A stretch of 63,928 nucleotides of DNA, filler included, from Psammoneis japonica (taxonomy: Eukaryota), in assembly GCA_008632985.1 (NCBI GenBank). It is 4 parts of 4 records of this genome, joined end to end, with 100 filler letters (N's around TTAATTAATTAA, not from the genome) between each part and the next. Parts side by side here need not be neighbours in the genome. Positions count along the whole stretch, not along the records: positions 16,347 to 32,388 come from QPGO01000486.1; 3 more parts are not named here. One strand, 5' to 3'. Numbering within the stretch: position 1 is the stretch's first letter; every line of letters begins with the position of its first letter. The notes below the pieces were generated by a model that saw nothing but the letters and a program-made list of their open reading frames with translations, did not search any database and was not told the DNA's origin. Both the position numbers and the translations under genes were made by a program. This document shows, piece after piece, positions 16,347 through 39,909 of this stretch.

Positions 16347-18923
16347 AAGTGCATCGTCTCGCAGAAAAAAGCGTCCTGATCTCCGAGTTCAAAAAGAGCA
16401 AAGTGCATCGTCTCGCAGGAAAAAGCGTCCAACTCGTTCCGGCAGCTCGAAAGAAAAAGGACAACCAGCGCAAACTGGATCATCAGCAATTGCTTCAAGT
16501 GGTCACAATGACAGTGCTGAAAGAGAACGGGGCGTTAAGGACGAGACGCAAAATACAAGCGAATATCATAGCCGCACCAGTCGGGAGAGGTCCGTCAACA
16601 GCACAGCCACAGCAAGCCTTGCGCTATCGGCTGCCGCGTATGTCGCGCCAGATGCTTTCACAGTGACGTCTGGAGACCAAGCTGCACAACCCGAAGAACC
16701 GGACAGAGATGACCGCGTCACAGTTACTTCAGATTCCAACAAAGTGATGGAGATGGATCCAGCACAAGTCGTAGAGGCGGTTCCTGCTACTTCTGATGGT
16801 GGTGGTGGCGGACAGAATGAGAAAGCAAATGACACAACGCGAATTAGTGACGAGGATGAGAATGCTGAAGATGAGCTTCATCGCAAGTACCTTCGCAAAC
16901 GATTCATTATTCCGGGCGTTGTATTGTTGGCGATTGCAGCGATTGTCAGTATTGTTGTTGCAGTAAAGCCGTGGGACACAGGTGGTGGAGGGAGCCCCAC
17001 TTTCCCCCCTACTGTTTCCCCTACTGTTGCACCCGCCACAGAGACTACCGAACGAGCCACCGGTTTGGTCATGAGTTTGATTGGTATTGATACCGAGTTT
17101 GATGAAAATGATTCCGAGTTGTGGGCTACGGCAACCAAAGCATTCGTCGAGGATTATTACAACACTCGTCGTCGTCGTCGTGGCCTTGGCTATCTCCAGA
17201 CCCCTCGTATATTACAAGTATCGAATATACAGAATGTCGAGACGTCTTTGGATGTTACTAACACCATTGTGGTTGAAGATGGCAATGGTGGAGAACCATC
17301 CCTTCGAGTCACATACAACCAAGCTATCACGTATACTTTTGAAGACAGCAGCAACGAAAACATTTCCATGGATGCCATGGTGACCGAACCATTCAAGACG
17401 TCTGATAGTCGATCGGCCTACCAAAAAGACCTCCAGGCGGCGGGCACCAGTGCTGGAAGCAACATTTTTGACAATTTGATTGGCACTAGTGAAGTTTCAA
17501 CCAGCACAGCTGCTCCGACACCGTCACCTACAAATAGCATTCCAATTACGGAACTACCAACACAAGATCCCGCGTCGCCACCGTCGACTCCGGGTCCAAC
17601 GACTCTCAATCCAACATCGTTGCCGACGACAAACCCTACTCCTCGTCCAACTCTCAATCCAACACCTCGTCCTACACTCAATCCAACGCCTCGTCCAACT
17701 CTCAATCCAACTCCACGCCCCACTCCATCACCAGCTCCAACAACACCCAATCCCACCAGTGGTGGTGGCAGNTGCATGGCAAAGATGCAAATGATCTTTT
17801 TGGCAATTCCGCAGGCTTGTCTTGTGATGGCAGTGTCATTGCCATTGGAGCGCAGCAATGGACCTTTTCTTCCAATCCCGGCTGTGTTGTTGTCAATCAG
17901 TGCAATTTGAGCACCCAACAATGGACCCAAATTGGCCAAGAATTGATTGGACAAGATGGCGGTGATGGTTTTGGCAAGTCTGTTTTGTTGAATGGCAGTG
18001 GTGCAATTCTTGCCATTGGTGCTGACAGGAATGACAGTGGTGGTGAGGATGCCACCATGTGCTTGTGTTTGAATGCAACTTTGGCTCAAATCGTTGGGAT
18101 CAAATTGGCAGCGACATTCTTGGACAAGGTGCCATTCATCAATTTGGCTTTTCCGTGTTGCTGTCGGAAGCAGGACACATTCTTGCCATGGGAGCTGCCA
18201 CGAAAAATGGCGTGGGCTCTGGATCAGTTCAATTGTTTCAATGCAACCGCAACACATCATCCTGGCATCAACTCAGACAATCACTCATGGGTCAATCCAT
18301 TGATGATCAATTTGGCTTTTCCGTTTCCTTGAATGTGCAGGGAACCATTGTTGGTGTTGGAGCCAACAGAAATGATTCGGGTGGAAGCGATGCGGGCCAA
18401 GTGTCGGTGTTTGAATGCAATTCTGCTCGTCAAATGGGATGTTGGGCATCCAATCAATGGACAAGTTGTTGATGGTTGGTTTGGATCTTCTGTTTCTCTT
18501 GATGACAGTGGTTTGATTGTGGCCGCAGGTGCACGTGGAAGCAACGAGAGAGTTTTGGTTCATTCGCACGACCGCTTGACATCGACATGGAATCAACATG
18601 GCCAAATTCTCTTGACATCACAGCCTTGGAATGTTTTTGGTTGGTCCGTGTCGTTGAGTGGCAATGGAAACGTCCTTGGCGGCGGAAGCATTTGCATGAC
18701 GTCAATGGATGTCCTGCGGGGTNNNNNNNNNNNNNNNNNNNNNNNNNNNNNNNNNNNNNNNNNNNNNNNNNNNNNNNNNNNNNNNNNNNNNNNNNNNNNN
18801 NNNNNNNNNNNNNNNNNNNNNNNNNNNNNNNNNNNNNNNNNNNNNNNNNNNNNNNNNNNNNNNGCTGATGTCAATGGCGACGATTCCGGATCCGCGTACG
18901 CATTCACGGTAAATGACAATTAG
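16347..18923 (+). CDS. 3' part of the MLKL-like receptor kinase gene: TM, ectodomain, Pro/Thr stalk and FG-GAP-like repeats (repeats degraded or gapped)
   Basis: 16347-17298 equals 31436-32388 except for one base. TM FIIPGVVLLAIAAIVSIVVAV; TLNPTPRP repeats; FGxSVSL...VGVGA...DSGGSDAGQVxVF repeats; ends DSGSAYAFTVNDN*. Confidence 0.7.
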
Positions 18924-21636: not shown

Positions 21637-22149
21637 TAGAGAGAGAGAGTGCTTTGGATTTTAAGAGAGATAATAGAGGACGCACACAGCATGCTATGCT
21701 AGCTAGCTGCTTTCCGTCCCAGCTTCGTGGCACCACGTGTAAAAATTAACCCCCCATTTTTAACCAAATGCCCACCTCGATCGACTGGCAGTAACCAGAT
21801 ACGAAGTTCAGCACACTTTTGGGGGCCTAGAGAATGGGGGTGAACGTTAGTTACTAACTAACCAATCACTGAATGCTGACTTTGCACTTGCCCGTGTGAC
21901 AAAGGTGCACCACGAAAAGTTAGTTTTATTTTGAAATACCGAGATACCATGAACAACACATGCCCATTGCATTCTTGCAAGACATTGTTTTTTAAAGACT
22001 GGGAGACCGATGATGCTCATGTCTTGTGCACTTTGTAGCTCTGCTCTAGCTAGCTGGGGTCAAAGTCCAACTGTTTTTTTGGATCAACGATTCGATTCGA
22101 ATGGGTCGAATTTCATTCCCGAGTCGTCGTGACTCGTTCATACGGTGCG

Positions 22150-23400: not shown

Positions 23401-24808
23401 TGAGACGACTCTCTCTCTCTCTCTCTCTCTAGAGTGGCCAGTGGCCTGCTCTCGCTCTCTCTGGAGGCAGAGCCAAAGCAGAGAACAGAGAGCAGGTCCA
23501 GAGAGCAGAGGCCACTGCTGTTGTTGCCATGGTGACTGCTGTTGCCATCTCTGCTGCTGTTGTGGCTCTGCCTCCTCTGCCAGTTTGCTGCTCTGTCATT
23601 GCACGAGCACTCACGAGCCATCGCATCCATGCCAAGCTCATCTCATCACTGTGTTGCATTGGTGACCACTCATTGCAGCTTTTCAAAGGCCACACTTGAC
23701 AAAAACCAGAGCTGTGCACTTTGTGAAGAAATGCTGCAGATGTTTGGTTGGCCAGCTGCAGATCCGCAGCACACCAATGTGAAACATGATGCTGGTCAAT
23801 TTCGGTTGACCCAGAGTTTTCAAACAAGCTGCCCATCACTTTTTTTTGCCTGGCTGCCCCCAACTCTGACTTTTCATTTTTGAGTCTCACTGCTGCTGGG
23901 TTTGTTTTGCACGTGGCTCCTTCAGTGTTTGCCAGTGCTTTGTCAAATCTTTCATGCCAGCCCTTGTTGGTGAGTTTCCTGCTTGAGCCTGGTTGGAGAT
24001 CCGGGATTCCAGGAAACACAGCCTTGTGCACTTGCAGCAAAATGTCCAAATCTTGATTTGTTGTGCCATTTGCACATGCCTTCCAAGCAGTGTCACATCA
24101 TCCACCCACGACTTCTTTGTTCTTGAATCTCAACCCACAAATTTGCCAGCATGTCTTGTTCTCTGATTTTTCACTTCAGCACAGCTCTCTCCAACTCAAA
24201 ACACTTTGCTGAGCACATCACAGTTGCTCTGTTGGAAGTCTCAAAAGGTCCCCTGGTGCCAAACTGGTGCAGCATCTCTTGCTTGGGCAATGGCAGCCCA
24301 GAGCTGGTCTTCAGCCATCTCATCACACTCGGTCACCACTGCAAGTCCAATCTCTTTGGCCAAAACTTTCTCTTGCACCACCACCTTTTTGCACTTCAAC
24401 ACAGTGGGTGCCAGAAATCTGGCTGCTGGCGGGTGGTGTCGCGACAAAGCAAAAGGCATGCTCCAATGTTTTGTGCACAGAGCTTCTGTTGTGATGGTCC
24501 AAAAAATGACAAATGTTCAGACACCCATGACACCCTGTCAATGTCATCGTCAGCTCCCGCGGGTTTTTGACAAGTTCTCCGTGCAGTGTCAGTTGTCACT
24601 GCGGTGATGGTCTGTGCGCTAATCCGGAGCACATCACTGCCATGCCAATTTCGAATGATTGCGGTTGATGATTCGTTCGATTCGAGTCCGGGTTCTGAGC
24701 TCACCGATCATGGATTTACCGCACTGGATGGAGCCGCGGCCGTCGCAAAACAACACCATGATGCCTCTTTACCTCTCTTGTTGATACTACTGTAATTGCA
24801 TTGTCATC

Positions 24809-27384
24809 ATGGCTTCGTGGTATACAGAAACAACAATATTGTCGTCGCTGTTGTCTGCTGCTTACGTCATAACAACACCGATGCCGTTCAAGCATACCGG
24901 TCAAGCCCGGAAGCTTTTTCCAATTTCTAACCTATCTCTACGCGGAACGCAAGTTTATTCTTGTCATCTTGATTCACTTTGTTTGTACCATGGTAATTTG
25001 GGGTGAGTAGAGTATATTGTATGATTGAGTTGTGTGTGTGTGTGTGTGTGATTTGCTATACTCATCTCAAACATACCGCCGCACCTCTATACCGTACTCC
25101 CTAACATAATACTACAGCACACTTCTTTGTGGTCAAGTTTCATCAACAAGAAAACAAAGTACCCGAGGACGCAAATCGATATTGGTGGAAACGTCTCGCT
25201 CCGCCACTCGAGTTTGGAGCCATGCATGCCATTTTGTTTCAAATGGCATTCCTACCGCTCACCATGGCTCGGCTCTCCATTGCGGCAGCCTCCAAAACAT
25301 CTCTCAATACGTACTTTCCCTTCAACAAGAGTCAGCGCATTCATATTCATTTGGGATACGTCTTTGGGAGCATTGTTGTGATTGCCACGATTTTCTTTTT
25401 TGCCTTTTTTGGATTGCTTTGTTCCGATGGCGAACAAGCGTTTTGTGACAAGTTTACGTCGGAAATCATGATTACGGGGTACATTACCGTGGCCTTTGTC
25501 TTGATTATCCTCTCTACATCATTCTTTCGAGATTACATGCCATACGAAGTCTTTTATGGCATTCATCATTTGGTATTTGCCATGTACCTGGTGGTCTTGT
25601 TGCATACGATCGATATCAACGTTCGAAAGGACGGACAGAATCGGAGTCAAACCTTCAAGTGGTTTTCGGCGACACTCTTGTACTACGTTTCGGACCGCCT
25701 TGCCATGCGGCTTAATCATCGCTACAAGACGCGTGTCTTGCAAGCCAAAATTGTCAAGAATACAAAGTCGAGTATGATTTTGCTACAGCTCAGACGTCCG
25801 TCCTTGTTTCAATACGAACCGGGTCAGTACGCGCATCTTCGGTTTCCCGACATTGATTCGTATTGGCATCCCTTTTCGATTGGAAGCAGTCCGGATTCCA
25901 ACGTGTTGGAGTTTTATATTGAAGTCTATGACGACAAATCGTGGACGGGAAAACTCTGTCAATTGTTGGGTAATGACGTTAGCCACGAGAATGTTCGTGT
26001 TCAAGTCACGGGCCCGTACGGAACACGCTTGGGTGATACTCATCGATACTCTCATGCCATGGCTATTGGCAGTGGTTCTGGTGTCGTTCCCATTTTGGGA
26101 CTCTACAAAAAGCACATTTGTCAGCTACTCCGATTGGACCCACAAACATACTTTGAAGAACAAGCTCAAATGCATTCGCAACTCAAGCGTATGGAACGAG
26201 CGCGAGAACAAACACGTGGATCGTGGCTCAACTACTTTTTGCGGTGTTCACCTCAACCGACCCGACACGAAATGGGCGTCATTTCGGGAATCTTTGATTC
26301 GAGCGATGCCGAAACCAAGGACTTGCGAGAGGCGGCCAAGCGTGCGTCTTTACCGATTTATGGCGTCAATATATTGATGCAACTGGTTGTCTTGGGAGTA
26401 ATCATGTTGGGATTGACCTTGTCGTGGAATACCATGCCGTTTGAACTCTACGACGGCATGCGAGAAGTGTTGATTGTTGGCTCGATTGTGTTTCAAGGCG
26501 CCTTTGCCGTTGTGTCGATTGGATACTGGGACCGCGGCTCGTTGCTGGCGTATGTTGATGTTTTGATTGTCATTGCTGGTGCCGTGGCCAATTGGTATTG
26601 GTTTGAGTACGACAAGTGGGCCAACTTTGAAGCGGCAGAGCATGTGTATTACATCTTGTTGTTTGGATACATGACGGCGCGGTTGTGGCATTCGGCCGTC
26701 AAGCCACGATACTGTTCATTGCGGAGCAGCTTGGAACGACAACACACGAGTTCAGCATTGGACAAGCTGCACTTTGTTTGGATTACGCGTTCATCCACCA
26801 ACGTTTTGAAGATTGCACCCACAATCATGCAAGAATGGAATGCGCTTGTTGCGGCGTGGGGATTGGAGAATGCCGTCAAGGTGTGTCAGGTTTCTATTTA
26901 CGTTACCGACAAGGACAAGGCCGCCGTGGGCTATCTCAAGCAGGAGTTGTCCAAGACGCCCCTTTACAAGCAAGGTGCATTCCATTATGAGCGTCCTGAC
27001 ATTTCCAAATTGTTGGAAGAGCATGCCATGGAACGCATTTATGATGAGAGTCGTCCCACCTCGTCTACCCTCTTGTGCTTTTGCGGATCTCCCAAGCTAT
27101 CATCAGTGATAAGCAAAGCCAAGACCATTGTGGATATATCAACAATGATTACGGGAAACAAGTACCACCAAATGGATTTCGTTTCCGAGAGTTACAGTGC
27201 CTACACGAAGCGTCCGTCGTCGTCGAACAATAGCAACGCGGTAGTTGTCGCTGCCTCGGCAAAGACGCCACAGTACAGTGTCTTTATGGATTCACCCAGC
27301 TTTATGGAGAAGCAACATTCGGGAGATGAATTGGATACGACGGATACCTTTGAAGACAATGAGGACCACCTTATTTCCATTTGA
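24809..27384 (+). CDS. NADPH oxidase (NOX/RBOH-like flavocytochrome) with a 4-TM insertion in the dehydrogenase domain
   Basis: Heme His (IHIHLG, IHHL..LLHT), FAD site HPFSI, GPYG, GSGSGVVP, extra hydrophobic helices, HFVW, FCGSP. Intron about 25003-25117. The exon 1 frame is uncertain. Confidence 0.85.
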
Positions 27385-27669
27385 GACTACAGAGGATCGT
27401 GGACGGCACGCAACTTTAGAATTGTTTTAGTTTACCTTGCGCATTTATAATTTATAACTACCTCAGCATACATTGATTGTCTTCAGCCTGTGATTCATAA
27501 CTACCCCAGCATGCATTGATCGATTTCAGCTTTTGTGTGTTAGTCTTTTCAATTGAGAACTAGATGCATTTACAATGCCTCCAGTTCCATTTGAGATGTG
27601 CATCTGGCTTTTAGAGGCACATGCTGGGAAGCCATTTTGCTTCATTTTTCCTTGAGCAACTTCCACAAG

Positions 27670-28520
27670 AAGCTCGAAAATGCCCAACCTGGCCTGATTG
27701 CGAAACTTCTGCGTGCAGCCAAGATGGAAGACTGCAATGGATCTCCAACTCCTGCCCTTCCCATCTCTGTTGGCAGTGACACAGAAGGCCCACCATTCGA
27801 TGAACCTTGTGACTGCCGATCTGTGGTTGGCATGTTGATGCATCCAGTGCCCAACAGCTGTCTGGACATCATCTGCACTGCCCATCAATTTGCTTGGTTC
27901 TCCTGTGCTCCAAAAGCCTCCCATGCCATTGCTGTCCAATGCATTCTTTGACACTTGAAGGACACGACTGACAAAGGGCTCATCCCAGCCCCAACCATGG
28001 ATCAACGACTTGATTGTCATGTTGATGCCAATTTTGTGGGTCTCTTCCATGTTGAGGATGATCAGGTTCCTGCTTCTGTTAAGTCTCGCACAGGATGTCC
28101 AAGCTGCAGCGGCCCCTCATGGTTTTGTCTCTGCTGTTGGAGGCAGAGAATGTTTCTCTCCCAATCAATGCATGGCCTCATTCCCCTTTGTGAGATCTTG
28201 AAGGAAATCAATGCACATGCTTTTGGTCAGCTGGACAGGAAGAATGGCATCACCACACATGCCAAGGCTTTCCAACCCACCAACGATGGAACCAATTCAC
28301 CCCCATTGCCTCTGCCAGCATCAGCTTGCTCACACGCCAAAACTGTCCCCACAAACCAAGCACACCATCGTGCCTTGTCACCAGTTTTGTGCTGAAGTTG
28401 AGGCTTTGGAGATCAAGATTGAGCCTGTCAGCTCTGCTGCACAGCTTGCTGACCAGTTTGCTGGGGGTTTGACTGCTGCTGATCTGTTCTGCACTTTTGT
28501 GGGGCCCTCATGGGCTGGCG
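27670..28520 (+). mobile_element. Decayed Copia RT/RNase H fragment
   Basis: QPGLI...MEDCNGSPTP, DCRSVVGMLMH, CHVDANFVG, SPQTKH, QLADQF; homologous to 38810-39660. TpA-free. Confidence 0.85.
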
Positions 28521-29639
28521 ACTGTTTGTCCTGCTTCTCTTGATTTTGCAGGCAGGCTGGGAGAAAATGAGTCAATTTGCTGCTGTTCTGTTGCTTTCCC
28601 CAAACAACAATGGCAAGTCTGCCACCCGTGGCAGAATGTGCAATCAAGGAATTGCTGCGGCAACATGAAGAAAACGCAGCAAGCCACCAAGGAAGAAGAG
28701 TGTCCGTCAACGGCTGTTTTGGAGGTCCTGCTTCACTTGAGCTGCACCAATGTAAAAGTGATGCAGGCTTCACACTTTTTCATCTTGCAGTCTTCTTTGC
28801 AAACATCCTTTTGAAATGCCTGGCACCACGTGCAAAGCTTTTGGGTCCATCAGGAATGAACCGCTCTCACAGCTCTTTTTGTGCTCGATCGACGACAATG
28901 GGGCGAACAACCCAAGGTCCAAATTGTCATGGGTCTTTTTGGCAAATGCAAATGACTGTGCACCGGAGTGGAGTGGCTTTCCATGAGACAACAAACGCCA
29001 ACGTTGGAAAACAGGGTGGGTCTTTTTTCAACAATGGCAGACTTGACAACATGCATTGATTGACCAAGGTGGCAAAACACGCCACGTGTGCACCAACAAC
29101 AGCATCATCATTTCTGCTCGACAACAACAGGGGATGATTTCGATTGGTGTTGTTGGTTTGGTTGTTGATGTTGAAGTGAAGTGCGGCATTGGCGGCCTCT
29201 CTTTTTGGCACGCACCGGCCGGCTGGCACGCACCGGTGTGACTGCACCTATGTGGGTGACAGACGGACGGACCAACCGGATGGCCACATAGTACGCCCGC
29301 CTAAAACCAACATGCGTGCAGCGCAACGCTTGAACCGCACGATCGTTCATCGCGGGAATAAGCATGCAAGCAGTTGGAAGTTGAAGTTATTGGTTATTGT
29401 TCTGTTGTTCTTCTGTTATCCCATTGCTTCATTTAATTCGTTCCTGCCCTTGTCTCACGGGCAAGCGTCGCTGTTCTACAGCATAATCGATCTCGCCTTG
29501 TTGCCATTGTGTTGGTGCCTGTCTCCTTTGCAGTTGCGTTTCTGCTGAGCAGAGGAACCACCTCTTGTCTCGCGTCTCACCGATCCGGACTCCGCAATTT
29601 TGATTCTGCATCTCGCAGAAAGACACAAAAACAGCAGAC

Positions 29640-32388
29640 ATGCTTGGTGACATCATCGCCGGCATAGAAGCGGCTTTCAACTTGTGCGCCGTGATTTACA
29701 AGAGCTATGAAACGGTAAAGATCATGCCGGATTTGGCCAAGACCCTCAAGGACCGCGTACAAATATTCAAACCGCGACTCGAGAAACTCGTTAGGGAATG
29801 CCAGGCATCAGGCACATCACAGAAGGTAATTCCGCTTTTGCATATTCAAAGCTTGAACACGGTGTTGGGTGACATTCAAAAGTACATGAAGAAGCTTCAG
29901 GATGACTCTAAACTACGAAAGTTGAAGAATCGGGTGTTTTATCAGAGTCTCCTGGATGAATATGAAGAGCTCAACACCAAGCTCAATCGTTGTCGGGATG
30001 ATCTTAAATTTGACTTTGAGTTTGATGTCGATGCCGAGAGAAAAGCGTTTGAGAATGAAACGAAAGGTCTCCTACAGTGTCTTATTGATCATCAGGGTCA
30101 AGAGCACCGTATTCTGCGCGAGATGCTTTCTGAAGTCCTCAGGTTCATCAAGGGTCACAAAGCGCTAAATCTCAATGAACAAAACAGTCCTGCTATTGTG
30201 ACCGCTTCTGCATTTATGGACAATAGTGACTCTGCAACTCTACGAGCTATCATTGATGAGCAGAGTGCCATTGAATATGAACTCCCGCCATCGGAGGTCG
30301 TTTTAGAAGATATCGAGCTTGGAGCAGGCACCTTTGGTGTCGTATACAAGGCAACATACAATAATCAAGATGTTGCCATCAAGAAGCCTCATCGTCGAGA
30401 ATCGGATGTTTTGGCGGAACTCATGAACCAAGAAAGATGCAGCGGCTCGCCTTTTGTTGCCCTTATACACGGCTTTGTTTATGTCAATGAGATTCGGTCT
30501 ATTGTTATGGAGTTCATGCCATGTGGTACTCTAGGAGGTCTACTACGCCACGCAATGGGAAGGGATGGGATTGTGTCCATCAGCAAGGACCAGCAAAGTC
30601 TCGAGGCCACACTAGCTGCGTACACAGTAATTCAGCTCTTTCACAAGGTTAGTGAGGGAATGCGATTCATCAGTCAACGTAATGTGATACACCGCGACCT
30701 CAAGCCGGAGAATATTCTTCTAAGTCAAACTCTTGACCCCAAGATTGGGGATTTTGGGTCTGCTCGAGAGCTCGCAAACAGCGCGACTCACCTTTCGGGA
30801 TCCGCTGCTGGATCTGTATACTATATGGCTCCGGAAGTATTGACGGTCCTTAAAGCTGACAAAGGACAATACTCCTATCCTGCCGACCAGTACAGTTTTG
30901 GAATGATCATGGTTAAATGCTGCCATGGTCTGTTTGGTCAGCAGTCTCGTGTGGACCGGCACGACGAGGACGCGCCTCTTCCAGAGATTCCTCTTCCTGA
31001 TGCGTTCCCTTCTTCGGTAACAGATATCAAGAACAATTGCATTGCTTCAGACCCATTGATGCGCTATGGTCGTGGCACCGCTTCAGAATCACTTCTATCA
31101 GAAGCGTTCGAGAAGGTACTGCAGCAATTGGATAGCTCTGTCTCTTATCCAAAGATTGATGGGTATTATGGTGACGACGTTGCAGAGGTGGCAAATATTG
31201 CTCGGATCGCTTTTGAGAGTAAGACGCATCGTGGGGTATCTGGCATTATAACTTCGTCCTCATCGCTGATCCCAACACCCGGCATGGAGAAGAAGCCATT
31301 GAAGGACGGAGAGCCGAGCTACTCCACCGCGTCCTTGTCACATTCGTCTACATCCGCGAAAGAACCGGTTCCTCGTGCAAGGAAGGAGAAGAAAAAGAAG
31401 AAACCGACTGCTGATCTCCGAGTTCAAAAAGAGCAAAGTGCATCGTCTCGCAGAAAAAAGCGTCCTGATCTCCGAGTTCAAAAAGAGCAAAGTGCATCGT
31501 CTCGCAGGAAAAAGCGTCCAACTCGTTCCGGCAGCTCGAAAGAAAAAGGACAACCAGCGCAAACTGGATCATCAGCAATTGCTTCAAGTGGTCACAATGA
31601 CAGTGCTGAAAGAGAACGGGGCGTTAAGGACGAGACGCAAAATACAAGCGAATATCATAGCCGCACCAGTCGGGAGAGGTCCGTCAACAGCACAGCCACA
31701 GCAAGCCTTGCGCTATCGGCTGCCGCGTATGTCGCGCCAGATGCTTTCACAGTGACGTCTGGAGACCAAGCTGCACAACCCGAAGAACCGGACAGAGATG
31801 ACCGCGTCACAGTTACTTCAGATTCCAACAAAGTGATGGAGATGGATCCAGCACAAGTCGTAGAGGCGGTTCCTGCTACTTCTGATGGTGGTGGTGGCGG
31901 ACAGAATGAGAAAGCAAATGACACAACGCGAATTAGTGACGAGGATGAGAATGCTGAAGATGAGCTTCATCGCAAGTACCTTCGCAAACGATTCATTATT
32001 CCGGGCGTTGTATTGTTGGCGATTGCAGCGATTGTCAGTATTGTTGTTTGCAGTAAAGCCGTGGGACACAGGTGGTGGAGGGAGCCCCACTTTCCCCCCT
32101 ACTGTTTCCCCTACTGTTGCACCCGCCACAGAGACTACCGAACGAGCCACCGGTTTGGTCATGAGTTTGATTGGTATTGATACCGAGTTTGATGAAAATG
32201 ATTCCGAGTTGTGGGCTACGGCAACCAAAGCATTCGTCGAGGATTATTACAACACTCGTCGTCGTCGTCGTGGCCTTGGCTATCTCCAGACCCCTCGTAT
32301 ATTACAAGTATCGAATATACAGAATGTCGAGACGTCTTTGGATGTTACTAACACCATTGTGGTTGAAGATGGCAATGGTGGAGAACCA
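29640..32388 (+). CDS. Protein kinase with N-terminal MLKL/MCAfunc-like helical bundle, low-complexity linker and single TM; runs off the scaffold end
   Basis: LGAGTFGVVYKA, VAIKK, HRDLKPENIL, DFG and APE are intact. Amphipathic N-terminus MLGDIIAGIEAAFNLCAVIYKSYETVK. An extra T near 32047 shifts the frame relative to the copy at about 16960. Confidence 0.88.
31412..31519 (+). repeat. 54-bp coding tandem repeat (DLRVQKEQSASSRRKKRP x2)
   Basis: Direct reading of sequence and translation. Confidence 0.9.
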
Positions 32389-32488
32389 NNNNNNNNNNNN
32401 NNNNNNNNNNNNNNNNNNNNNNNNNNNNNNNNTTAATTAATTAANNNNNNNNNNNNNNNNNNNNNNNNNNNNNNNNNNNNNNNNNNNN
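32389..32488. other. Artificial scaffold spacer
   Basis: N-run + TTAATTAATTAA + N-run. Confidence 0.95.
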
Positions 32489-35400
32489 TCGCGCGCTTCA
32501 ATTTTCAAATTCCGCCATCAAAACTCTGCTCGACATTGCAGTCATAATTTTCAGTCAGCGACTTTTGCAACAACAACAGTTGCTAGTTTACAACCTTGAG
32601 CATCAGCTCTTTTGACATCTGCAGTCACACATCGGCATGACAAGTGGTCATCGAGCCCAAACGCAGTGTGTAGAGTCTTTAACCGGAGCTGCACCGATCC
32701 ACCGCGTTCTCGTCGAACGCGACAGTCATCTCAAGCCGTCGATCGTCCGTTTCAAACGGAATCGCCATTCATCGATTCGACAGACGTCTCCAGTCTATCG
32801 ACGTCGACACTACGTACAGCTGAGCCTCCCTCCTTCGTCGATGGGCTCGTGCGCATTTTCCCGCCACCGGAACCGATCCACGGAGCCGGAATCATCATCG
32901 TCAAGCGTCGTCATTTTCGGCCGTTGCGACACAAACCCGGATTGAGTCGTTTCGAACTCTCCGAGTCTATGCCAAGTCCAGACCTGCCTCTCACGCTATT
33001 CGACGACGATGCTCTCGTCACCGATTGATTGTTGAGCTTCTGCGGCAGTCTCCCAACGATGCGGCATCAAGAACTTCATTTTGCCGTTTGTGTTTCAAAC
33101 TCTACGTAGCTTCAGTGCCAAGTTCTATGCATTGACTCAAATCCACCATGGCCGGAACGCCGTCAAAGACTCCGTCCAAGACCCCCAAGGGTGCCAAGAC
33201 TCCGCAACAGAGGAGTCAGACTCCTCAACCTTCTCGAACCGGCAATGGGACATCCACTGCTCCCGCTGGTGATGACAGCAGTTCCACCACAGGAGCTAAT
33301 CAACCTCCGCCTCCTCCAAGGCGTGGAGGGATCCATCCAGAACATGGGCAACACATGGGCGGTTCTCCGTCAGACGACGACTGCAAGCCCAAGCCACCTC
33401 GTTCCTGCCGCTCAACTGACCAGTCTCGCGACAAGAAGATTCTACCGCACATCGAGCGCACTCTTCGCGAAGCTCGAGACGGAACACTCGTCGTCAAGTT
33501 TGACGGAAACCTCGAGCTCACTGACACGACCTCCAACGAGCTCGATCAATCCCACTTCGTTCAGGCCATCCGCACCCTTGTCAAGGAGCATGGCTTGGAG
33601 AACTTCTTCGCTGTGAAGCTCGAGAAGAAGGTTGTGTCGCTCTTCGACCATCTCCACTCTTTTACGGTCGACGAGGTGATTGCCGAGTACCTTCATCGCG
33701 CCAACGTCGCCAAGAACTTCACTGCCTGTGACGATTGCGAGCACAATGATGTCGCTCTCTCCCGATTGGTTGTTGAGTCTAGAATCTCCCACCGATTCCG
33801 CGAGAAGATCGAGGTCCAATTCGGTCATGACGATCTTTTTTGAGCACTGCCCCGGTCAAGTCTATTTGATGATGGCTTTGGACACTTGCAATGCGTCTGC
33901 CGCACATGACGTTGCCCAAGCCGCCGAGGACCTCGATGCTCTGTCGCTTGCATCCTACCCGGGTGAGGACGTGGCTGAGTTCGCCACCGAAGCTCTCCGT
34001 CTCACCAAGCTGCTCCAAGCCGGGCATGCGTCACCTGTCGACCTCGGGTCGAGCATTCTCAAGAAGTGCCAGAAGACCTCATGTGAGGCATTCAATCGCA
34101 AGATTTACACCAAGTTGGACAAGGTGTCGACCATGGAACACAAGTGTCGCCTTGGCGATCCCAAGGCGATTGCCGCGGACTCCGACTGTGATGAACTCGG
34201 GCCTGCAGCGTGCATTTCCTTCTTGCAGAAGGAGCATCGCTTCTGCGTTGCCGACAAGGATTGGCCCGGACTTTCCACCAAGCTCCCTCAGAGCAACAAC
34301 GCTTCCAAGACAGGAAAAGGGGCCTGCAACGCATGTGGTGCTCCGGACCACTGGGCCAACGATCCCAAGTGTCCCAAGCATGCCGAACGTCAGAAGCGCA
34401 AGAAAGAGAAACGTGAGCAGCGTCGACAGAACAGTCGCAAGGACAACCCGTCGGTTCCACCTGCCACTGCACCACCTCCTGCATCTTCCGTCACGGTTGA
34501 CACTGTCCCTGCTGACAAACAAGCCAAACTCAAGGAGTTGCTCACCAACGAGCCCCATCGTTACACCCGTCCGCAGACCTGTCCAAACCCATCGTGAACA
34601 AGCACGGTTCGACCACGCATTTTTGTGGAAAGTGCACTTGCAAGCACACCGGCATTCAGGGGATGTGTGCAAATCACAAGGAGTCAGATCATGTTCGCAA
34701 ACCACCGAAACAAGAACCACCTGCGGCCAATCTCACCTCCATTGACGACCCAGATTCGGGCGTCCCACCTGGGCCACCCGCTCAGACTACTCCAGACCCA
34801 ACCAATGCGCCCGAGCCCTCTCCTGCTGAGGACGAGCTTGTTTGGACTGGATTCCATTGTTGTGTGGTTGAGGGCTCGTCTCCTCCCACCCCGTCTGTCA
34901 TGCGAGTCTCCTGCAAACCCGCTTCTGCGTCTCAGAGGGAGCGCCCACCAGTTGCAGTCGAGACCGTCGCACCTGAAGATGCTGACGACTTCAGCGATTA
35001 CTTCGATGCACATGACGACCTGTCTTGGGACGATTCCATTGTTGTGTTTCCGCCCAAGACTCCTCCTTCATCCAGTGTCCCCACTTCGGGTGCTCCGGCT
35101 CCTGCGGCTGAGTTCTTCTTTGATGCCGAGTCCGGACCCGACCCCGCGCCGGATCCACCGGTTCCCCAAGCTCACCATCTGTTGCTGTGGGATCTCCTCA
35201 AGCTCCCGCTCTTTTGGATCTCTGCAATGCTTTGGGAAGGTCTCCTGTGGCTTGTCTGCTCCCAGGATGATCCCCCCCCTCCTCCCCGCTGTGAACGTCG
35301 CCTCAAGCACCGCCCTGCGCTGCATCGCTGCCCCCATCATTGGGGCGTGATTGCGTGCGCGATTGCGCTTTGGCATTTTGTGCACGGCGGCGCTGTCCCT

Positions 35401-38400
35401 CCCCACCCCTTTCAATCATTGGACCGCCTCTCTTCTCAAACATGCGAAGTTGTCTCCGCTCTCGATGAGCGCGTCGATCTGTCGCCCGGCACGTTCGTCC
35501 AGCACCATGCCATCAAGGTCAGACAATTCAAATGTGAGTTGGCGCGCTCAGAGGGAGACAAGCAAGACACCGCCACTCCACCTTTCGAACTTTCCGAGTT
35601 GGTTGACAAGAGTGACAACGACGATTTCTTTGATGCGCACACGGAGCTCCCCGTCCATGCGGAATGCTTCTTCGATGCTGACACCTTCCGCGAGTCTGAC
35701 TGCTCGAGCCCGGATGTCTTTTGGCATTGCTGACTTGTGTCACGCCTGCCACTTCGTCGACTGCACCAACACTCTGGAGCTCGCTGCAGAGGATCCATCA
35801 GCTTCCCCTGCTTTGCCGACCTCTGCTGCACTTCGTGCCATTTCCAGGGAGACCCAACTTGCGCGTCTCACCGCTGATCCCCAGGCCCTCTTTTCATGTC
35901 GGACCAAGTGATCTCCAGGTTGTTTTTGATGCTGGTGCCTCGCAGGCCATCACTCCTGACGAGAAAGATTTTGATGGTCCGATCAAGTGCCACCGGACCC
36001 CGCTCCGCCTCGGCGGCATGGCTGACGGCATGTGCATCACTGGTGAGGGCACCGTCACGTGGACCTTTCAAGCCAGGGAGGGTCACGAAATTGCCATCCA
36101 GCTCCGCGCCTGTCTCGTCCCGTCCTCCAAGGTTCGCTTGCTTTCTCCACAACGTCTCTTCCATGCAGACGGCATCAAAGGACATTTTTGGGGTGACAGT
36201 GAGATTTTCAAGGTTTGTTTCGCAGACACGCCGGAGTTGACGCTCGAGTGCGACGAGCGCTCCCACTCACCGGTTGGCCACGCGACTCTCGGTTCCATCC
36301 ATGCACCACAAGTCAATTTGAGCGCCATTGGCGACCCGGACAACCTCAATCTGTCTGCTGGACAGAAGCTTCTCAATGAATGGCATGCGCGCTTTGGGCA
36401 CTTACATTTTCCCAAGATCCAAGCTCTGCTCCGCGGCCATCCGTTCGAGGCCATGAAATTCAAGGCAGCATCCAAATGCGACATTCCAAAATGCGACACA
36501 TGCGAACATGCCAAGGCTCATCGCCGTTCTTTGAAGTCCACCATTCACAAATCCGACCCTAAGCGCGATGGAGCGTTGAAGGCTGACCATCTCAATCCGG
36601 GCCAGTCCGTCAGCATCGACCATTTTGAATCGCGTCTCAAGGGCCGCACCCATGATTCATGCGGCAAACCGTCCTCCCAGCAGCATGTTGGCGGCTGTGT
36701 CTTTGTCGACCACGCCTCTGGTTACATCCACGTTGAACACCAAGTCAGTTTCTCCGCTGTCGAGACTGTTCAAGCGAAACAGGCACATGAGACCATGGCA
36801 ATGGGACACGGCGTGATCGTCCAAACTTGCCTCACCGACGGTGGTGCTTTCAAGGCCAACCAGTTCGTTTCCCACATCCACAACTCCCAGCAACGCATGC
36901 GCTTTTGTGGTGCCAACGCTCATCATCAAAATGGTGTTGCCGAATGCTCCATTCGGCCCATCTCCAACATGGCTCGCGCCATGATCCTCCATGCTTCGAT
37001 TCACTGGCATGGCGGCATCGACAGCTCTCTGTGGCCCATGGCAGTGCACTGTGCTGCCCACATCTATGACACCACTCCCGGCGCCCATGGTCTGTGTCCC
37101 GCCGATGTCTTTGCTGGCACTGCCGTCCCACGCCACCACCTCCGCGATCTCCACGTTTGGGGTTGTCCCGTCTACGTCTTGGATCCCAAATTACAAGAGG
37201 GCAAGAAACTTCCCCGTTGGCAGCCGCGTTCTCGGCGTGGTGTCTTTCTCGGACTCAGTCATGTTCACGCCAGTGAGGTGCCATTGGTCCTCAATCTCAA
37301 TGCTGGCTCCATCACTCCCCAGTGCCACATCGTGTTTGACGATCTCTTCACCACGGTTGCTTCGATCGCGAGGGAGAGCGAACCACCAGACCACTGGGAA
37401 GAATTGTGGTTGGAGAATGCCACTCAAATTCCCTTGGACTTGTCCGACAGACCGTTGTTCCTTCAAGACGACTGGCTTGCTCCTGCTGAACTTGAACAGA
37501 AATGACGACATGAGACTGGGGAACGCAATGTTTGCGCTGCACGTCAACAGCAGCAGAACTTGCCGAAACCCGCTGAGAAACCAACACCTGCAGCGGATCC
37601 TTTGCCAACTCCACATCCACCGCCGTCTGCACCATCGACACCAACAACTGCAGTTGATCCATCACTGACACCACCGCCACAAACACTGTCGCTTCAAAAC
37701 CCATCATCGCCAACGCCTCCAGTTGACGATCCTCCACCTTCAGTCGCACGTCCGCCATCTGCTGCTGGCGATGGTCCGGGCACATCAGTCCCATCCATGA
37801 CTGCTCCAGCCCCACCTGAACCTTCATCCACGACTGAGACACCAGGGGTGCGCCGATCCCAACGGTTGAACAAGGGTACGCGCACAACCACTCATTTCGC
37901 CGACGAAGCATGTCTGGCTTCTGTCATCCCTGATGATGTTGGAGGACAACAGGCTCAGCTTGCCTGTTTGGCTGAGATCCAGACTGGCTGTGATTCGGGT
38001 GTTTTGGACATTCAGGACCCGCGGATCTACGCCGCTAAAGTCAAACGCGATGCGGACAATCCGAGTGTTCGCGAGGCTCTCTTGGGTGATTTTGCCGAGC
38101 AAAGCATTGAAGCCATGAAGACGGAGGCATCTGCTCTCGTCCATCGTAAAACGTGGCAATTTGTGAAATGGGAGAAGTCAATGAATGTGCTCAAGTCCAC
38201 GTGGGCATTCAAGTTGAAACGATTGCCGGGTGGCACGCCGCTTGAGTTCAAAGCGCAATTTTGTGTCCAAGGAGATCTGCAAAAAGAGGGAGTTGACTGC
38301 TTCGAGACCTGCGCTCCAGTGGTCCAATGGTCGACCATCCGTCTCGTGTTGAGCACTGTCCTACAAGAAGGATGGACCACCCGTCAGGTCGATTGCACCA

Positions 38401-39909
38401 ACGCTTTTGCGCAGGCCGAAATGACGGAAGACGTTTGTGTCGAACCACCCAAGTGTTTTGCTCCCAGTTCGGGATCCAATGTTGTCTTGAAGCTGCTCAA
38501 GAGTCTCTGCTGTCTCAAGCAAGCTCCCAAGTGCTTCTTTGATGAGCCACGTGAAGGATCATTGGAACGTGGATGGACCCAGTCGCAAGTCGACCCGTGC
38601 CTGTTTTTCAAGGACGGTGTGATTTGTGCAGTCTATGTTGATGACACTGTCCTCACTGGCAAGAATGGAGCCGCTCTAGAAAATGAGATCAAGGCTCTGG
38701 GCATCCAAGACGACGAACAACGCCATGTGTTCGAGTTGCGAAACGAGGGAGAAGTTGGTGACTTCCTCGGCATCAAGATTCGCAAAACCGGACCCAAGGA
38801 ATTCCTCCTCACCCAGCCTGGACTTGTTGATGAGGCCCTCAAGACAGCTGGCATGGAAGATTGCCGCTCTTCTCCCACTCCTGGCACTGCCTCTCCATGT
38901 CATGCGGATAAAGAGGGAGCCGAATTCGACGAGAACTGGGACTGCCGTTCCGTCATCGGCATGTTGATGCATCCATCATCCAACTCCCGACCAGACATCT
39001 GCTGCGCCACACATCAAGCCGCCCGTTTCTCACATGCTCCCAAGCATTCTCATGCGATTGCGGTGAAGCGCATTCTACGCTACTTGCAAGGCACTGAGGA
39101 CAAGGGACTCCATCTACGTCCCAGCGACAACGAACGTGTTGATTGTTTCGTTGACGCCGACTTCGCCGGCCTCTACGGTCACGAAGACACTCAAGATCCG
39201 GTCAGCATCAAGTCCCATGCCGGATGTGTCATCTTGCACTGCGATTGTCCTGGTTTTATGGGTTTCTAAGCTGCAGACGCAAATGGCACTCTCCACTGTG
39301 GAAGCCGAGTGCCTTGCTCTGTCGGCTGCGATGTGCGACCTGATTCCGATTCGTGAAATTTTGAAGGAATTCAAGTGTCATGTTTCGGTCTCACGGATTA
39401 CAAGACCCCTGCCACCACCAAGTCCAAGGCCTTTTCAGATGTAAAGGATGGTGCGATCCCTTCTTCAGCAGTTTATGAAGACAATCAGGCGTGCCTCAAG
39501 TTTGCGAAAATGGCCAAGTCATCTCCACGCACCAAACACATTGGCACTCCCCACCATTGGTTCCACACCAAGGTTGAGGCTCTTGAGATCCGGATTGAGC
39601 CTGTAGGAACTGATTCCCAGTTAGCTGATCAATTTACGAAGGGACTTATTACTGACAAGTTTGAATCTGGTCGGTTGAGTCTCTCAGGCTGGTGGCTCTA
39701 CGGTTGAGAGGGAGAGTTGACGTCTGTCAATCTACCTGTCGACTGCGCGTAATCGCGCGCTTCAATTTTCAAATTCCGCCATCAAAACTCTGCTCGATAT
39801 TGCAGTCATAATTTTCAGTCAACGACTTTTGCAACAACAACAGCTACTAGTTTACAACCTTGAGCATCAGCTCTTTCGATATCTACAGTTATACATCGGT
39901 ATAACAAGT
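32489..39909 (+). mobile_element. Near full-length Ty1/Copia (CoDi-like) LTR retrotransposon, inactivated
   Basis: 5' LTR (clipped by the scaffold start) 32489 to about 32645; PBS-like TGGTCATCGAGCC; gag ATG at 33148; order PR-IN-RT(YVDD)-RH (FVDADFAG, EDNQAC, RTKHI, QLADQFTK); PPT GAGAGGGAG at 39706-39714; 3' LTR 39715 to about 39909. Confidence 0.96.

What the first reader, a model, noticed from the sequence alone, without database searches (positions are those of the whole stretch)
29640..32388. Unusual receptor architecture: MLKL-like helical bundle + active kinase + TM + mucin stalk + FG-GAP propeller (type II topology)
Seen: no signal peptide; N-terminal ~130 aa amphipathic helices; an intact kinase; a basic cluster RKYLRKR just before a single TM; then, via the overlap with 16347-18923, an ectodomain, Pro/Thr repeats and FG-GAP-like repeats. 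Established: MLKL/MCAfunc/HeLo bundles mediate membrane disruption in animal, plant and fungal cell death, and typical receptor kinases have the opposite orientation. Inference: a single-chain sensor-kinase-executioner in an alga.
Basis: partly seen in the sequence, partly recalled or inferred. Interest (0 to 1): 0.7.

Follow-up and report, generated by a model that had tools for sequence, protein, structure and literature searches.

The report
MLKL-like receptor kinase, inverted topology
A gene of a eukaryotic microbe, split over the overlapping ends of a draft scaffold, encodes a membrane receptor with an apparently active kinase and a probable MLKL-type "cell-death" helix bundle inside the cell and a propeller sensor outside; I found this layout in no paper, and its killing function is untested.

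Summary
The window is four scaffolds joined by linkers. The first 953 nt of scaffold 2 (16347-32388) repeat its last 953 nt, apart from one extra T. Read across that overlap, one frame of about 1,070 codons runs from ATG 29640. It encodes a helical N-terminal domain, a kinase with all catalytic motifs, a 280-aa disordered linker, a basic cluster, one membrane helix, a 180-aa outer module and a Pro/Thr stalk. Six FG-GAP blades follow, but only across a real contig break (N at 17772) and with two frameshifts.

A metagenomic homologue (786 aa) carries bundle, kinase, membrane helix and stalk in one frame, so the single-chain, N-in/C-out layout is real.

The MLKL-like call is supported but not proven:
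- Pfam MLKL_N scores E 1e-5, or 25.5 bits against a cut-off of 27.
- Language-model neighbours are MLKL_N, MCAfunc and RPW8 clusters.
- Both AlphaFold models were poor, so fold searches say little.
- ESMFold2 predicts self-association through residues 112-174.

Only two other sequence clusters among 1.84 billion share the domain. The executioner function is inference. I rate it a new variant of a known kind, interest 0.6.

The parts
29640..30014 (+). N-terminal helical domain, aa 1-125. It is a probable MLKL_N / HeLo-like bundle with a hydrophobic first helix and basic patches at aa 21-52 and 81-98.
   Evidence: Pfam MLKL_N matches aa 13-122 at E 5.5e-5 (whole ORF) and 1e-5 (aa 1-200), at 23.1-25.5 bits against a cut-off of 27. 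Predicted helices are 2-56, 66-87 and 99-121. There are 22 K/R against 17 D/E. Identity to the two homologues is 42-48%.
30003..30071 (+). Most conserved block of the family, aa 122-144, lying between the bundle and the long helix. I propose it as a hinge or latch.
   Evidence: 19 of 23 positions are identical to P0001 and 18 of 23 to P0121, against 42-52% in the flanking domains. The invariant columns are listed.
30027..30158 (+). Long 'brace-like' helix, aa 130-173. It is the predicted self-association interface and is coiled-coil-like from aa 144.
   Evidence: AlphaFold predicts a helix at 130-172. In the ESMFold2 four-copy model the in-register contacts lie at 112-174. Contact positions from 144 on are mostly hydrophobic in all 3 family members.
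30315..31070 (+). Protein kinase domain (aa 226-477) with all catalytic motifs. It is of the TKL/Raf-like type.
   Evidence: Pkinase E 2.5e-36 and PK_Tyr_Ser-Thr E 2.6e-31. The best solved relatives are B-Raf and Raf-1, E about 1e-19 to 1e-20.
31140..31967 (+). Cytosolic linker rich in Ser, Ala, Lys, Glu and Arg (aa about 501-776). It includes a K5 run and an 18-aa unit repeated twice (nt 31413-31520).
   Evidence: Composition and repeat positions are. No Pfam match falls here.
31968..32048 (+). Basic cluster HRKYLRKR followed by the membrane helix, in the copy at the scaffold's 3' end. The frame is broken just after it by an extra T in the run 32047-32049.
31436..32388 (+). The 3'-terminal 953 nt of scaffold 2, identical to its first 953 nt (16347-17299) except for the one T.
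   Evidence: blastn gives 952 of 953 identical with 1 gap; repeat families D1 and D2.
16879..16965 (+). The same basic cluster and membrane helix in the in-frame copy.
   Evidence: Logan contigs of runs X1 and X2 cover 16389-17182 with 0 differences and 0 gaps (records 2 and 9).
16966..17502 (+). Outer juxtamembrane module of about 180 aa, with no known family.
   Evidence: The ORF is continuous. Pfam finds nothing meaningful. No relative was found among longer proteins.
17503..17771 (+). Pro/Thr-rich stalk with NPTPRPTL repeated three times.
   Evidence: Logan contigs cover 17157-17771 with 0 differences (records 4 and 12).
17772..17772 (.). A single N marking a real contig break. The reads' contig continues with 15 letters that do not match the next scaffold contig.
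   Evidence: table 7 (loose end behind 17771 in X1 and X2).
17775..18722 (+). Six FG-GAP-type blades in three reading frames. The frame shifts near 18053 and near 18424-18432.
   Evidence: FG-GAP_2 hits. FGxS motifs lie at nt 17799, 17970, 18143, 18311, 18480 and 18636. The spacings of 173 and 169 nt are not multiples of 3. A Logan contig of lower depth (40.6) carries +5 nt at 18426-18446, which restores the frame (record 13).
18864..18923 (+). Last 19 codons and the stop, after a 141-N gap that may hold a seventh blade.

Best explanation
This is one nuclear gene for a single-pass, N-in/C-out (type II) receptor-like kinase.

Order of parts:
- Inside the cell: an N-terminal helical bundle of the MLKL_N / HeLo-like / RPW8 kind (aa 1-125), a strongly conserved hinge (122-144), a long self-associating helix (130-173), a catalytically competent TKL-type kinase (226-477) and a 280-aa disordered linker.
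- One membrane helix.
- Outside: a 180-aa module, a Pro/Thr stalk and, probably, a six- or seven-bladed FG-GAP propeller.

Proposed mechanism (inferred):
1. A ligand bound by the propeller clusters the receptors.
2. The kinases phosphorylate each other.
3. This frees the N-terminal bundle from the hinge and the kinase.
4. The bundle, already held at the plasma membrane, engages the inner leaflet and causes ion flux. The result is a Ca2+/cation signal or cell death.

Shown here: the parts, their order, the intact kinase motifs, conservation of the parts in two other sequence clusters, and the topology as inferred from charge and domain types.

Inferred: the bundle's fold, every activation step, and any action on membranes.
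For: Architecture:
- One frame runs from 29640 through the overlap to 17771.
- The in-frame version of the overlap is the one found in the reads' contigs.
- Homologues P0123 and P0127 (786 aa) carry N-domain, kinase, membrane helix, Pro/Thr stalk and a further outer module in one ORF on 3.1-kb contigs.

N-terminal domain:
- MLKL_N is the best Pfam hit (E 1e-5). The next family is at 0.013.
- P0121 matches the same model in the same register (E 0.032).
- The ESM Atlas neighbours of the window's domain score 0.93 and are MLKL_N, MCAfunc and RPW8 clusters. All 10 of the ten best family-bearing hits fall in one family or clan.
- P0001 gets the same set at 0.80-0.88.
- The domain lies directly before a TKL-type kinase, as in MLKL. 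The best solved relatives of the kinase are B-Raf and Raf-1.

Self-association (ESMFold2, four copies of aa 1-180):
- Score 0.85; the best of 3 controls was 0.00.
- The runs agree in at least 96% of contacts, and the partner's pLDDT is at least 84.
- The mark was reached by 21 of 30 proteins solved as pairs of one chain and by 0 of 23 solved as single chains.
- On eukaryotes it was reached by 17 of 29, but by only 1 of the 7 with no older solved relative.
- The calibration used two copies, not four.

Other points:
- All kinase motifs are present.
- The N-domain is as conserved as the kinase (42-52% identity), and the hinge reaches 78-83%.
- Topology: +5 charge before the membrane helix and net 0 after it. 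The C-terminal side holds a Pro/Thr stalk and FG-GAP repeats, which are typically extracellular modules (direct reading).
Against: - The MLKL_N score is under Pfam's gathering cut-off (23.1-25.5 bits against 27). P0001 has no MLKL_N hit at E <= 1.
- The Atlas 'recognition' value of 2279 is just under the 2300 that 91 in 100 known families reach. A third of shuffled proteins also get ten of ten hits in one clan.
- A profile of the three N-domains finds no MLKL among solved structures (3 hits at E <= 10, none related).
- Both AlphaFold models are poor (pLDDT 40.1 and 46.5), so the fold is not shown.
- Unlike animal MLKL the kinase looks active, and the protein is already membrane-anchored, so the MLKL mechanism cannot simply be transferred.
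- The propeller is joined only by scaffolding across a real break and has two frameshifts.
- The one homologue whose outer part is visible shows no FG-GAP there.
Confidence: 0.45

Rival explanations
1. It is an ordinary, though inverted, receptor kinase. The N-terminal helices are only a regulatory or oligomerising coiled-coil/helical domain. The receptor signals by phosphorylating substrates, and nothing attacks a membrane.
For: - The predicted interface is an in-register parallel helix pairing at 112-174, hydrophobic from residue 144 on. That is what a plain coiled coil looks like.
- All evidence for MLKL_N is below threshold or comes from language-model features.
- The kinase is intact and could be the only output.
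- The structure searches gave only generic helical bundles: 0 Foldseek matches at E <= 0.001, and a best VIA Z of 8.9 tied with BAR domains and ApoE.
Against: - MLKL_N stands three orders of magnitude above the generic helical families in Pfam.
- Two family members match it in the same register.
- The neighbours by features are all of one cell-death-bundle clan rather than assorted coiled coils.
- Residues 1-121 are predicted as several separate helices with loops, not one coiled coil.
Confidence: 0.35
2. The composite is partly an assembly artefact or a dead copy. Either the FG-GAP contig belongs to another gene of a large paralogous family, or this copy is a pseudogene with real frameshifts. 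In that case the true product ends differently or is not made.
For: - The reads' contig runs on past 17771 with 15 letters unlike the next scaffold contig (table 7).
- Most contigs laid on the stretch are only 90-95% alike, which points to many paralogous repeats: 36 of 61 in X1 and 85 of 134 in X2.
- There are two frameshifts and a 141-N gap in 950 nt.
- No contig of 90% likeness or more covers 17995-18097 in either run (table 2).
- The scaffold's ends overlap, which shows that the scaffolding is unusual.
Against: - The part that matters for the architecture (kinase, linker, membrane helix, outer module, stalk) is one frame.
- An alternative contig restores the frame at the second frameshift (record 13).
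- The blade spacing stays regular across both frameshifts, as expected of 1-nt errors.
- An AI note of this scan reports the same bundle-kinase-TM-propeller layout on another piece of this genome (not tested by me).
Confidence: 0.15

Closest known systems
Animal MLKL, the necroptosis executioner: four-helix bundle, brace helices and a pseudokinase
   Same: An N-terminal helical bundle of about 125 aa is followed by further helices and then a TKL-type kinase fold that starts near residue 215-225. The helical region after the bundle is predicted to self-associate. I recall that the MLKL brace helices mediate oligomerisation. The MLKL mechanism, in which phosphorylation releases the bundle and the bundle perforates the plasma membrane, is taken from passages of PMC12881547.
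   Different: Here the kinase keeps all catalytic motifs, whereas MLKL is a pseudokinase. Here the protein also has a membrane helix and a large outer domain. No RIPK3-like partner is implied. The sequence match to the family model is below its cut-off.
Plant MLKL-type proteins and kinase fusion proteins such as wheat Pm13 (MLKL_NTD plus Ser/Thr kinase)
   Same: An MLKL_N-type domain is fused to a Ser/Thr kinase domain and acts in immunity (abstract of PMC10951266).
   Different: The plant proteins as described in that abstract have no membrane helix or ectodomain. The window's protein belongs to a tiny family of its own.
Fungal HeLo / HeLo-like (HELL) domains, and the plant RPW8 and CC domains of NLRs
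   Same: These are membrane-targeting helical bundles related to the MLKL bundle (passages of PMC12881547). The Atlas neighbours include RPW8 and MCAfunc clusters. On the low-confidence model, the CC domain of the ZAR1 resistosome (6j5t_G) came third of the 50 rows shown, with Z 8.5, rmsd 3.3 and 106 residues aligned. It was tied with unrelated bundles, so this is only a hint.
   Different: Those bundles are triggered by amyloid templating or by an NLR switch, not by a kinase in the same chain that is tethered to a surface receptor.
Bacterial PknB/PknD-type transmembrane Ser/Thr kinases
   Same: The topology is the same: kinase at the N-terminus inside, one membrane helix, sensor domain at the C-terminus outside. 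I recall that PknD has a propeller sensor. PMC4601284 was seen only as a search listing.
   Different: The bacterial kinases lack an N-terminal bundle before the kinase. The window's kinase is closest to eukaryotic TKL/Raf kinases, and the gene lies beside a eukaryote-type NOX/ferric reductase gene.
Plant and oomycete LRR receptor-like kinases
   Same: A surface sensor domain is joined through one membrane helix to a cytosolic Ser/Thr kinase. Oomycetes, which are stramenopiles, have them (abstracts of PMC8254037 and PMC10390575, in the listing).
   Different: I recall that those are type I: signal peptide and ectodomain first, kinase last. Here the order is reversed, and a bundle precedes the kinase.

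Membership tests
MLKL_N (Pfam PF22215) / HeLo-like / RPW8 helical-bundle superfamily | A match to the family profile at or above its curated score | tested here: inconclusive
   E 5.5e-5 at 23.1 bits (whole ORF) and E 1e-5 at 25.5 bits (aa 1-200), against a cut-off of 27. P0121 scores E 0.032 in the same register. P0001 has no hit at E <= 1. The match is statistically significant but under the curated threshold.
MLKL_N (Pfam PF22215) / HeLo-like / RPW8 helical-bundle superfamily | A four-helix-bundle fold | tested here: inconclusive
   The AlphaFold models have pLDDT 40.1 and 46.5. Foldseek gave 0 matches at E <= 0.001. VIA gave a best Z of 8.9 among generic helical bundles, with the ZAR1 CC domain at Z 8.5. 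ESMFold2 folded the domain at pLDDT 84-85 in a four-copy job, but no model was returned for a fold search.
MLKL_N (Pfam PF22215) / HeLo-like / RPW8 helical-bundle superfamily | Membrane binding or permeabilisation, or cell death, caused by the isolated domain | not testable with these tools
   This needs expression and liposome or cell assays.
MLKL proper (animal and plant MLKL architecture) | Bundle, then connecting helices, then a kinase-fold domain, in this order at the N-terminus | tested here: met
   Helices to about residue 172, then Pkinase at 226-477. The best solved relatives of the kinase are the TKL kinases B-Raf and Raf-1.
MLKL proper (animal and plant MLKL architecture) | A kinase domain that is a pseudokinase regulated by an upstream kinase | tested here: not met
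   The G-loop, VAIK, HRD, DFG and APE motifs are all present. The protein is therefore not filed as an MLKL orthologue, only as MLKL-like.
MLKL proper (animal and plant MLKL architecture) | A soluble cytosolic protein recruited to the membrane on activation | tested here: not met
   One strong membrane helix lies at aa 785-805, followed by outer-type domains.
Protein kinase superfamily (Pfam PF00069) | A profile match above the cut-off, and the catalytic residues | tested here: met
   125.9 bits against a cut-off of 31.7; motifs.
FG-GAP_2 repeat propellers (Pfam PF14312) | Repeats above the family cut-off, in a regular array | tested here: met
   29.3 and 26.3 bits against a cut-off of 23 in 2 of 3 ORF pieces, and 16.7 in the third. 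Six FGxS motifs lie 156-173 nt apart. Whether they belong to this gene rests on scaffolding.
Type I receptor-like kinases (plant or oomycete RLK layout) | An N-terminal signal peptide and ectodomain, with a C-terminal kinase | tested here: not met
   The order is reversed: kinase N-terminal, ectodomain C-terminal, and basic residues on the N-terminal side of the membrane helix.

The most novel reading that the evidence does not exclude
A complete 'sense and execute' pathway in one polypeptide. A cell-surface propeller (or, in relatives, another outer domain) detects a pathogen, virus or neighbour cue. Its own active kinase then licenses its own MLKL/HeLo-type bundle to open the plasma membrane from inside. 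This would be a necroptosis-like suicide or Ca2+ alarm switch in a stramenopile alga, with swappable ectodomains like an immune receptor family.
Probability: 0.2. Interest if true: 0.85.

Novelty: new variant of a known kind. Interest (0 to 1): 0.6.

Why it matters
From the review passages read (PMC12881547), MLKL/HeLo/RPW8-type bundles execute immune cell death in animals, fungi and plants. The triggers described there are a separate kinase, an NLR or amyloid templating.

A version fused to an active kinase and hard-wired to a surface receptor would be the shortest known route from outside signal to membrane attack. It would also extend this module to stramenopile microbes, where the molecular basis of programmed cell death and pathogen sensing is, to my recollection, poorly known.

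It would give a concrete, testable candidate: express the bundle, kill the kinase, swap the ectodomain. It would also be a rare eukaryotic example of a receptor Ser/Thr kinase with the bacterial (kinase-first) orientation.

If the bundle turns out to be a plain regulatory helix domain, what remains is a modestly interesting inverted receptor kinase family with variable ectodomains.

Tried and rejected
- **Whole genome:** none is held for this window.
- **Paralogues in the window:** tblastn of the gene's parts against the window found only the gene itself and its overlap copy.
- **Expression:** no RNA holder is listed. There are only three DNA rows of one sample, which may be the source of the assembly. 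Nothing can be said on expression.
- **AlphaFold2, aa 1-500 with a 3-row alignment:** pLDDT 40.1.
- **AlphaFold2, aa 1-180 with 4 rows:** pLDDT 46.5. Both models are too poor to use.
- **Foldseek against PDB with the second model:** 0 matches at E <= 0.001.
- **VIA-align against 48,161 chains:** 7 chains at Z >= 8, all of them generic helical assemblies and tied within 1 Z. For helical models such values are common, so the absence of MLKL from the rows is not evidence.
- **Profile of the three N-domains against PDB sequences:** 3 hits at E <= 10 (EzrA, DNA polymerase alpha, langerin). None is meaningful.
- **Deepening the family:**
  - Exhaustive phmmer of aa 1-200 against 1.84 billion representatives found 2 proteins.
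  - A profile search among 5,236 candidates found 1, P0121.
  - Two metagenome-contig scans, with the N-domain alignment and with P0001, found no relative.
  - The outer module (aa 100-300 of the 369-aa ORF) against longer proteins found none, which that tool calls weak evidence.
- **Pfam on the outer parts:** nothing for P0124 (the outer part of the homologue), and for the window's juxtamembrane module only a PT-repeat row at E 1.8. My impression that the homologue's outer module resembles caps of stramenopile LRR ectodomains is recall only.
- **Literature:** seven full-text searches. None of the papers listed for them, judged by title and abstract start, describes an MLKL-like or HeLo-like domain in a diatom, a stramenopile receptor kinase with this layout, or a transmembrane MLKL-like kinase. 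Papers outside the held library and unread supplements could still hold one.
- **Rejected reading, signal peptide:** residues 1-20 hold acidic residues in all three family members. A signal peptide would also put the kinase outside and the mucin-like stalk inside.
- **Rejected reading, introns in the FG-GAP part:** the blade period continues straight across both frameshift points.
Full report
**What the window is.** The window is four scaffolds of 15-16 kb joined by N44-TTAATTAATTAA-N44 linkers: 1-16246, 16347-32388, 32489-48496 and 48597-63928. The finding lies at the 3' end of the second scaffold. The first 953 nt of that scaffold (16347-17299) match its last 953 nt (31436-32388) at 952 of 953 positions. 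The only difference is one extra T in the run 32047-32049. The gene starts near the scaffold's end and continues at its beginning.

**Anatomy.** ORF 29640-32180 (846 aa) begins at the first ATG after a stop, and both homologues align from residue 1. Pfam gives Pkinase at 226-477 (E 2.5e-36) and, below its cut-off, MLKL_N at 13-122. Positions of the parts are:

| Part | Residues |
|---|---|
| G-loop | 228-233 |
| VAIK | 245-248 |
| HRDLKPEN | 351-358 |
| DFG | 371-373 |
| APE | 397-399 |
| Linker rich in Ser, Ala, Lys, Glu and Arg (18-aa unit repeated twice at 592-627) | about 501-776 |
| HRKYLRKR | 777-784 |
| Only strongly hydrophobic stretch apart from residues 1-19 | 785-805 |

In the 3'-end copy the extra T breaks the frame right after the membrane helix. 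In the 5'-end copy (ORF 16663-17771) the frame runs on through a 180-aa module without a Pfam family. It then enters a Pro/Thr stalk that holds NPTPRPTL three times. After the single N at 17772 come six FG-GAP-type blades. Their FGxS motifs lie at nt 17799, 17970, 18143, 18311, 18480 and 18636, and FG-GAP_2 is above its cut-off in 2 of 3 ORF pieces. A 141-N gap follows, then 19 codons and a stop at 18923.

**Assembly caveats and reads.** Only DNA runs of one sample, possibly the source of the assembly, hold the stretch. I laid their Logan contigs on 16347-19411.
- A 794-nt contig covers 16389-17182 in both runs with 0 differences. The in-frame version of the membrane-helix region is therefore the supported one, and the extra T in the other copy is probably an error. 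Contigs can hide rare variants, so this is not certain.
- Contigs also cover 17157-17771 with 0 differences, but then run on with 15 letters unlike the next scaffold contig. The N at 17772 is thus a true break, and the propeller is attached only by scaffolding.
- Most contigs laid are only 90-95% alike (36 of 61 in X1, 85 of 134 in X2), so the genome holds many related repeats.
- The frame shifts near 18053 and near 18424-18432. The blade spacings there (173 and 169 nt) are not multiples of three, while the repeat continues unbroken. That fits 1-nt indels, not introns.
- One contig of lower depth (40.6) has +5 nt at 18426-18446, which restores the frame.
- The contigs over the overlap and over the unique stalk have similar depths (134.8 against 148.5 in X1; 247.6 against 223.6 in X2). 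This hints that the overlap is not an extra partial copy, but the tool warns that these depths are not copy numbers.

**Relatives.**
- A word-indexed search with the 846-aa ORF listed 120 proteins. Only P0001 (700 aa, 44% identity) covers 62% of the query. The other 119 cover 11-42%, which is the kinase.
- An exhaustive phmmer search of aa 1-200 against 1.84 billion representatives found 2 proteins: P0001 and the 310-aa fragment P0121. A profile search added none.
- P0001's cluster has 7 members. Two of them, P0123 and P0127 (786 aa, on contigs of about 3.1 kb), carry N-domain, kinase, basic residues, membrane helix, Pro/Thr stalk and a further outer module in one ORF.
- That outer module has no Pfam match and no FG-GAP, so the ectodomain seems to vary within the family.
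- Identity of the window's protein to P0001 is 42% over aa 1-125, 52% over 126-200 and 50% over the kinase. It is 83% (19 of 23) in the block 122-144, and 78% to P0121.
- The N-domain is thus under as much constraint as the kinase, and the junction after the bundle is the most constrained part.

**Is the N-terminus MLKL-like?**

For:
- MLKL_N is the top Pfam hit for aa 1-200 (E 1e-5, 25.5 bits), and the next family is at E 0.013.
- P0121 matches the same model in the same register at E 0.032.
- The ESM Atlas neighbours of the window's domain score 0.93 and are MLKL_N, MCAfunc, DUF7792 and RPW8 clusters from oomycetes, fungi and plants.
- P0001's domain gets the same set at 0.80-0.88.
- The layout of bundle, further helices and TKL-type kinase from about residue 220 matches MLKL. 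The best solved relatives of the kinase are B-Raf and Raf-1.

Against, or open:
- The Pfam score is under the gathering cut-off of 27 bits, and P0001 has no hit at E <= 1.
- The Atlas recognition value (2279) is just under its mark, and the tool says a third of shuffled proteins also get a uniform clan.
- A profile of the three domains finds no MLKL among PDB sequences.
- Both AlphaFold jobs failed to give a usable model (pLDDT 40.1 and 46.5).
- Fold searches on the second model gave only generic helical matches. Foldseek found 0 at E <= 0.001. The best VIA Z was 8.9, and the ZAR1 CC domain (6j5t_G) was third at Z 8.5, rmsd 3.3 and 106 residues aligned, tied with BAR domains and ApoE.

I put the odds that aa 1-125 is a true member of the MLKL_N/HeLo-like/RPW8 superfamily at about 0.6.

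**Self-association.** ESMFold2 folded four copies of aa 1-180.
- The score was 0.85, and the best of 3 controls was 0.00.
- The runs agree in at least 96% of contacts, and the partner's pLDDT is at least 84.
- The mark was reached by 21 of 30 proteins solved as pairs of one chain and by 0 of 23 solved as single chains.
- On eukaryotes it was reached by 17 of 29, but by only 1 of the 7 without an older solved relative.
- The calibration used two copies, not four.
- The contacts are in register along 112-174. The contact positions are polar up to 141 and mostly hydrophobic from 144 on in all three family members.

So residues 144-173 look like a parallel coiled coil. This fits a brace-like oligomerising helix (I recall this role for the MLKL brace) and equally fits a plain coiled coil.

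**Topology.** There is no signal peptide: acidic residues lie within residues 1-20 in all three members. There is one membrane helix, with five basic residues before it and net zero charge after it. An ATP-dependent kinase lies on the N-terminal side. The C-terminal side carries a Pro/Thr stalk, sequons and FG-GAP blades. All of this points to N-in/C-out. This is inference from sequence, not a measurement.

**How it most likely works.** I take it to be a surface receptor in which binding at the outer domain clusters the chains. The helix at 144-173 would help this. The clustered kinases then trans-phosphorylate. The change passes through the conserved 122-144 hinge to the N-terminal bundle, which sits next to the inner leaflet and carries basic patches (22 K/R against 17 D/E in aa 1-125). 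The bundle then acts on the membrane, giving ion flux or death. Only the parts list and their conservation are shown. Every step of activation is inferred.

The main rival is a plain inverted receptor kinase with a regulatory helical N-domain (0.35). A smaller rival is that the propeller join, or this copy, is an artefact or a pseudogene (0.15).

**Comparison with what is known.**
- Passages of the review PMC12881547 state that phosphorylation of MLKL's pseudokinase releases its four-helix bundle, which perforates the plasma membrane. They also state that HeLo, HELL and RPW8-type domains are its fungal and plant relatives.
- The abstract of PMC10951266 describes wheat Pm13 as an MLKL_NTD domain plus a Ser/Thr kinase.
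- The window's protein is not an MLKL orthologue. Its kinase is not a pseudokinase and it is an integral membrane protein, so two defining features were tested and not met.
- It shares orientation with bacterial PknB/PknD-type kinases (recalled; PMC4601284 seen as a listing only). It has the reverse orientation of plant and oomycete LRR-RLKs (abstracts; the type I layout is recalled).
- Seven full-text searches listed no paper that, by title or abstract start, describes this layout.

**Earlier notes of this scan.**
- Nothing had been noted at this place, and no look-alike was found by sequence.
- An AI note on another piece of the same genome (e1-7623266) reports the same combination in two tandem copies with a seven-bladed propeller. 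The scan has therefore found this kind before on other DNA.
- I could not test that note because no genome is held.
- Other notes call this genome a diatom. I did not test that either.

**Verdict.** This is a new variant of known kinds: an MLKL-like kinase and a receptor kinase combined in reverse orientation. Interest is 0.6. The bold reading, a one-protein sense-and-kill switch, has a probability of about 0.2.

Noticed in passing
window 16247-16346, 32389-32488, 48497-48596: The window is not one stretch of genome. It is four scaffolds of 16.2, 16.0, 16.0 and 15.3 kb joined by N44-TTAATTAATTAA-N44 linkers. Neighbourhood across these points means nothing.
   Followed up: yes
window 16347-17299 and 31436-32388: The two ends of scaffold 2 overlap by 953 nt at 952 of 953 identity. 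The scaffold therefore behaves as a 15,089-nt circle or tandem unit, or its small contigs were placed on the wrong side. The contig depths over the overlap and over the unique stalk are similar, which hints against an extra partial copy.
   Followed up: partly
window 25129-27384 (+): A 751-aa ORF 2.2 kb upstream of the kinase gene is a NOX/ferric-reductase-type protein: Ferric_reduct, FAD_binding_8 and NAD_binding_6. A ROS-producing oxidase beside a putative immune receptor is suggestive, but adjacency in a eukaryote is weak evidence.
   Followed up: partly
window 158-2017 vs 35273-37135; 4700-6560 vs 32489-34407 (inverted); 32489-32645 vs 39753-39909: Scaffolds 1 and 3 share several kilobases at 88-96% identity, in direct and inverted orientation. 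These could be a repeated element or diverged allelic or paralogous copies.
   Followed up: no
window 15368-16099 (+): A Cys-rich 243-aa ORF at the end of scaffold 1 matches Pfam DUF7640 in three stretches (E 1.2e-14).
   Followed up: no
P0001 / P0123 (homologues), kinase catalytic loop: The homologue has HCD where the window's protein has HRD, so it is a non-RD kinase. I recall that non-RD kinases are typical of pattern-recognition receptors in plants and animals (Dardick and Ronald 2006, recalled and not read here).
   Followed up: no
window 31413-31520 (+): An exact 18-aa unit is repeated twice in tandem in the cytosolic linker, just after a K5 run. The scaffold's first base (16347) falls inside the second unit, which gives a 55-nt secondary match.
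   Followed up: partly
window 20930-21181 and 21385-21636; 19955-20059 and 20170-20274: Direct repeats of 252 nt (98% identity) and 105 nt (95%) lie in the intergenic region downstream of the gene's 3' part.
   Followed up: no
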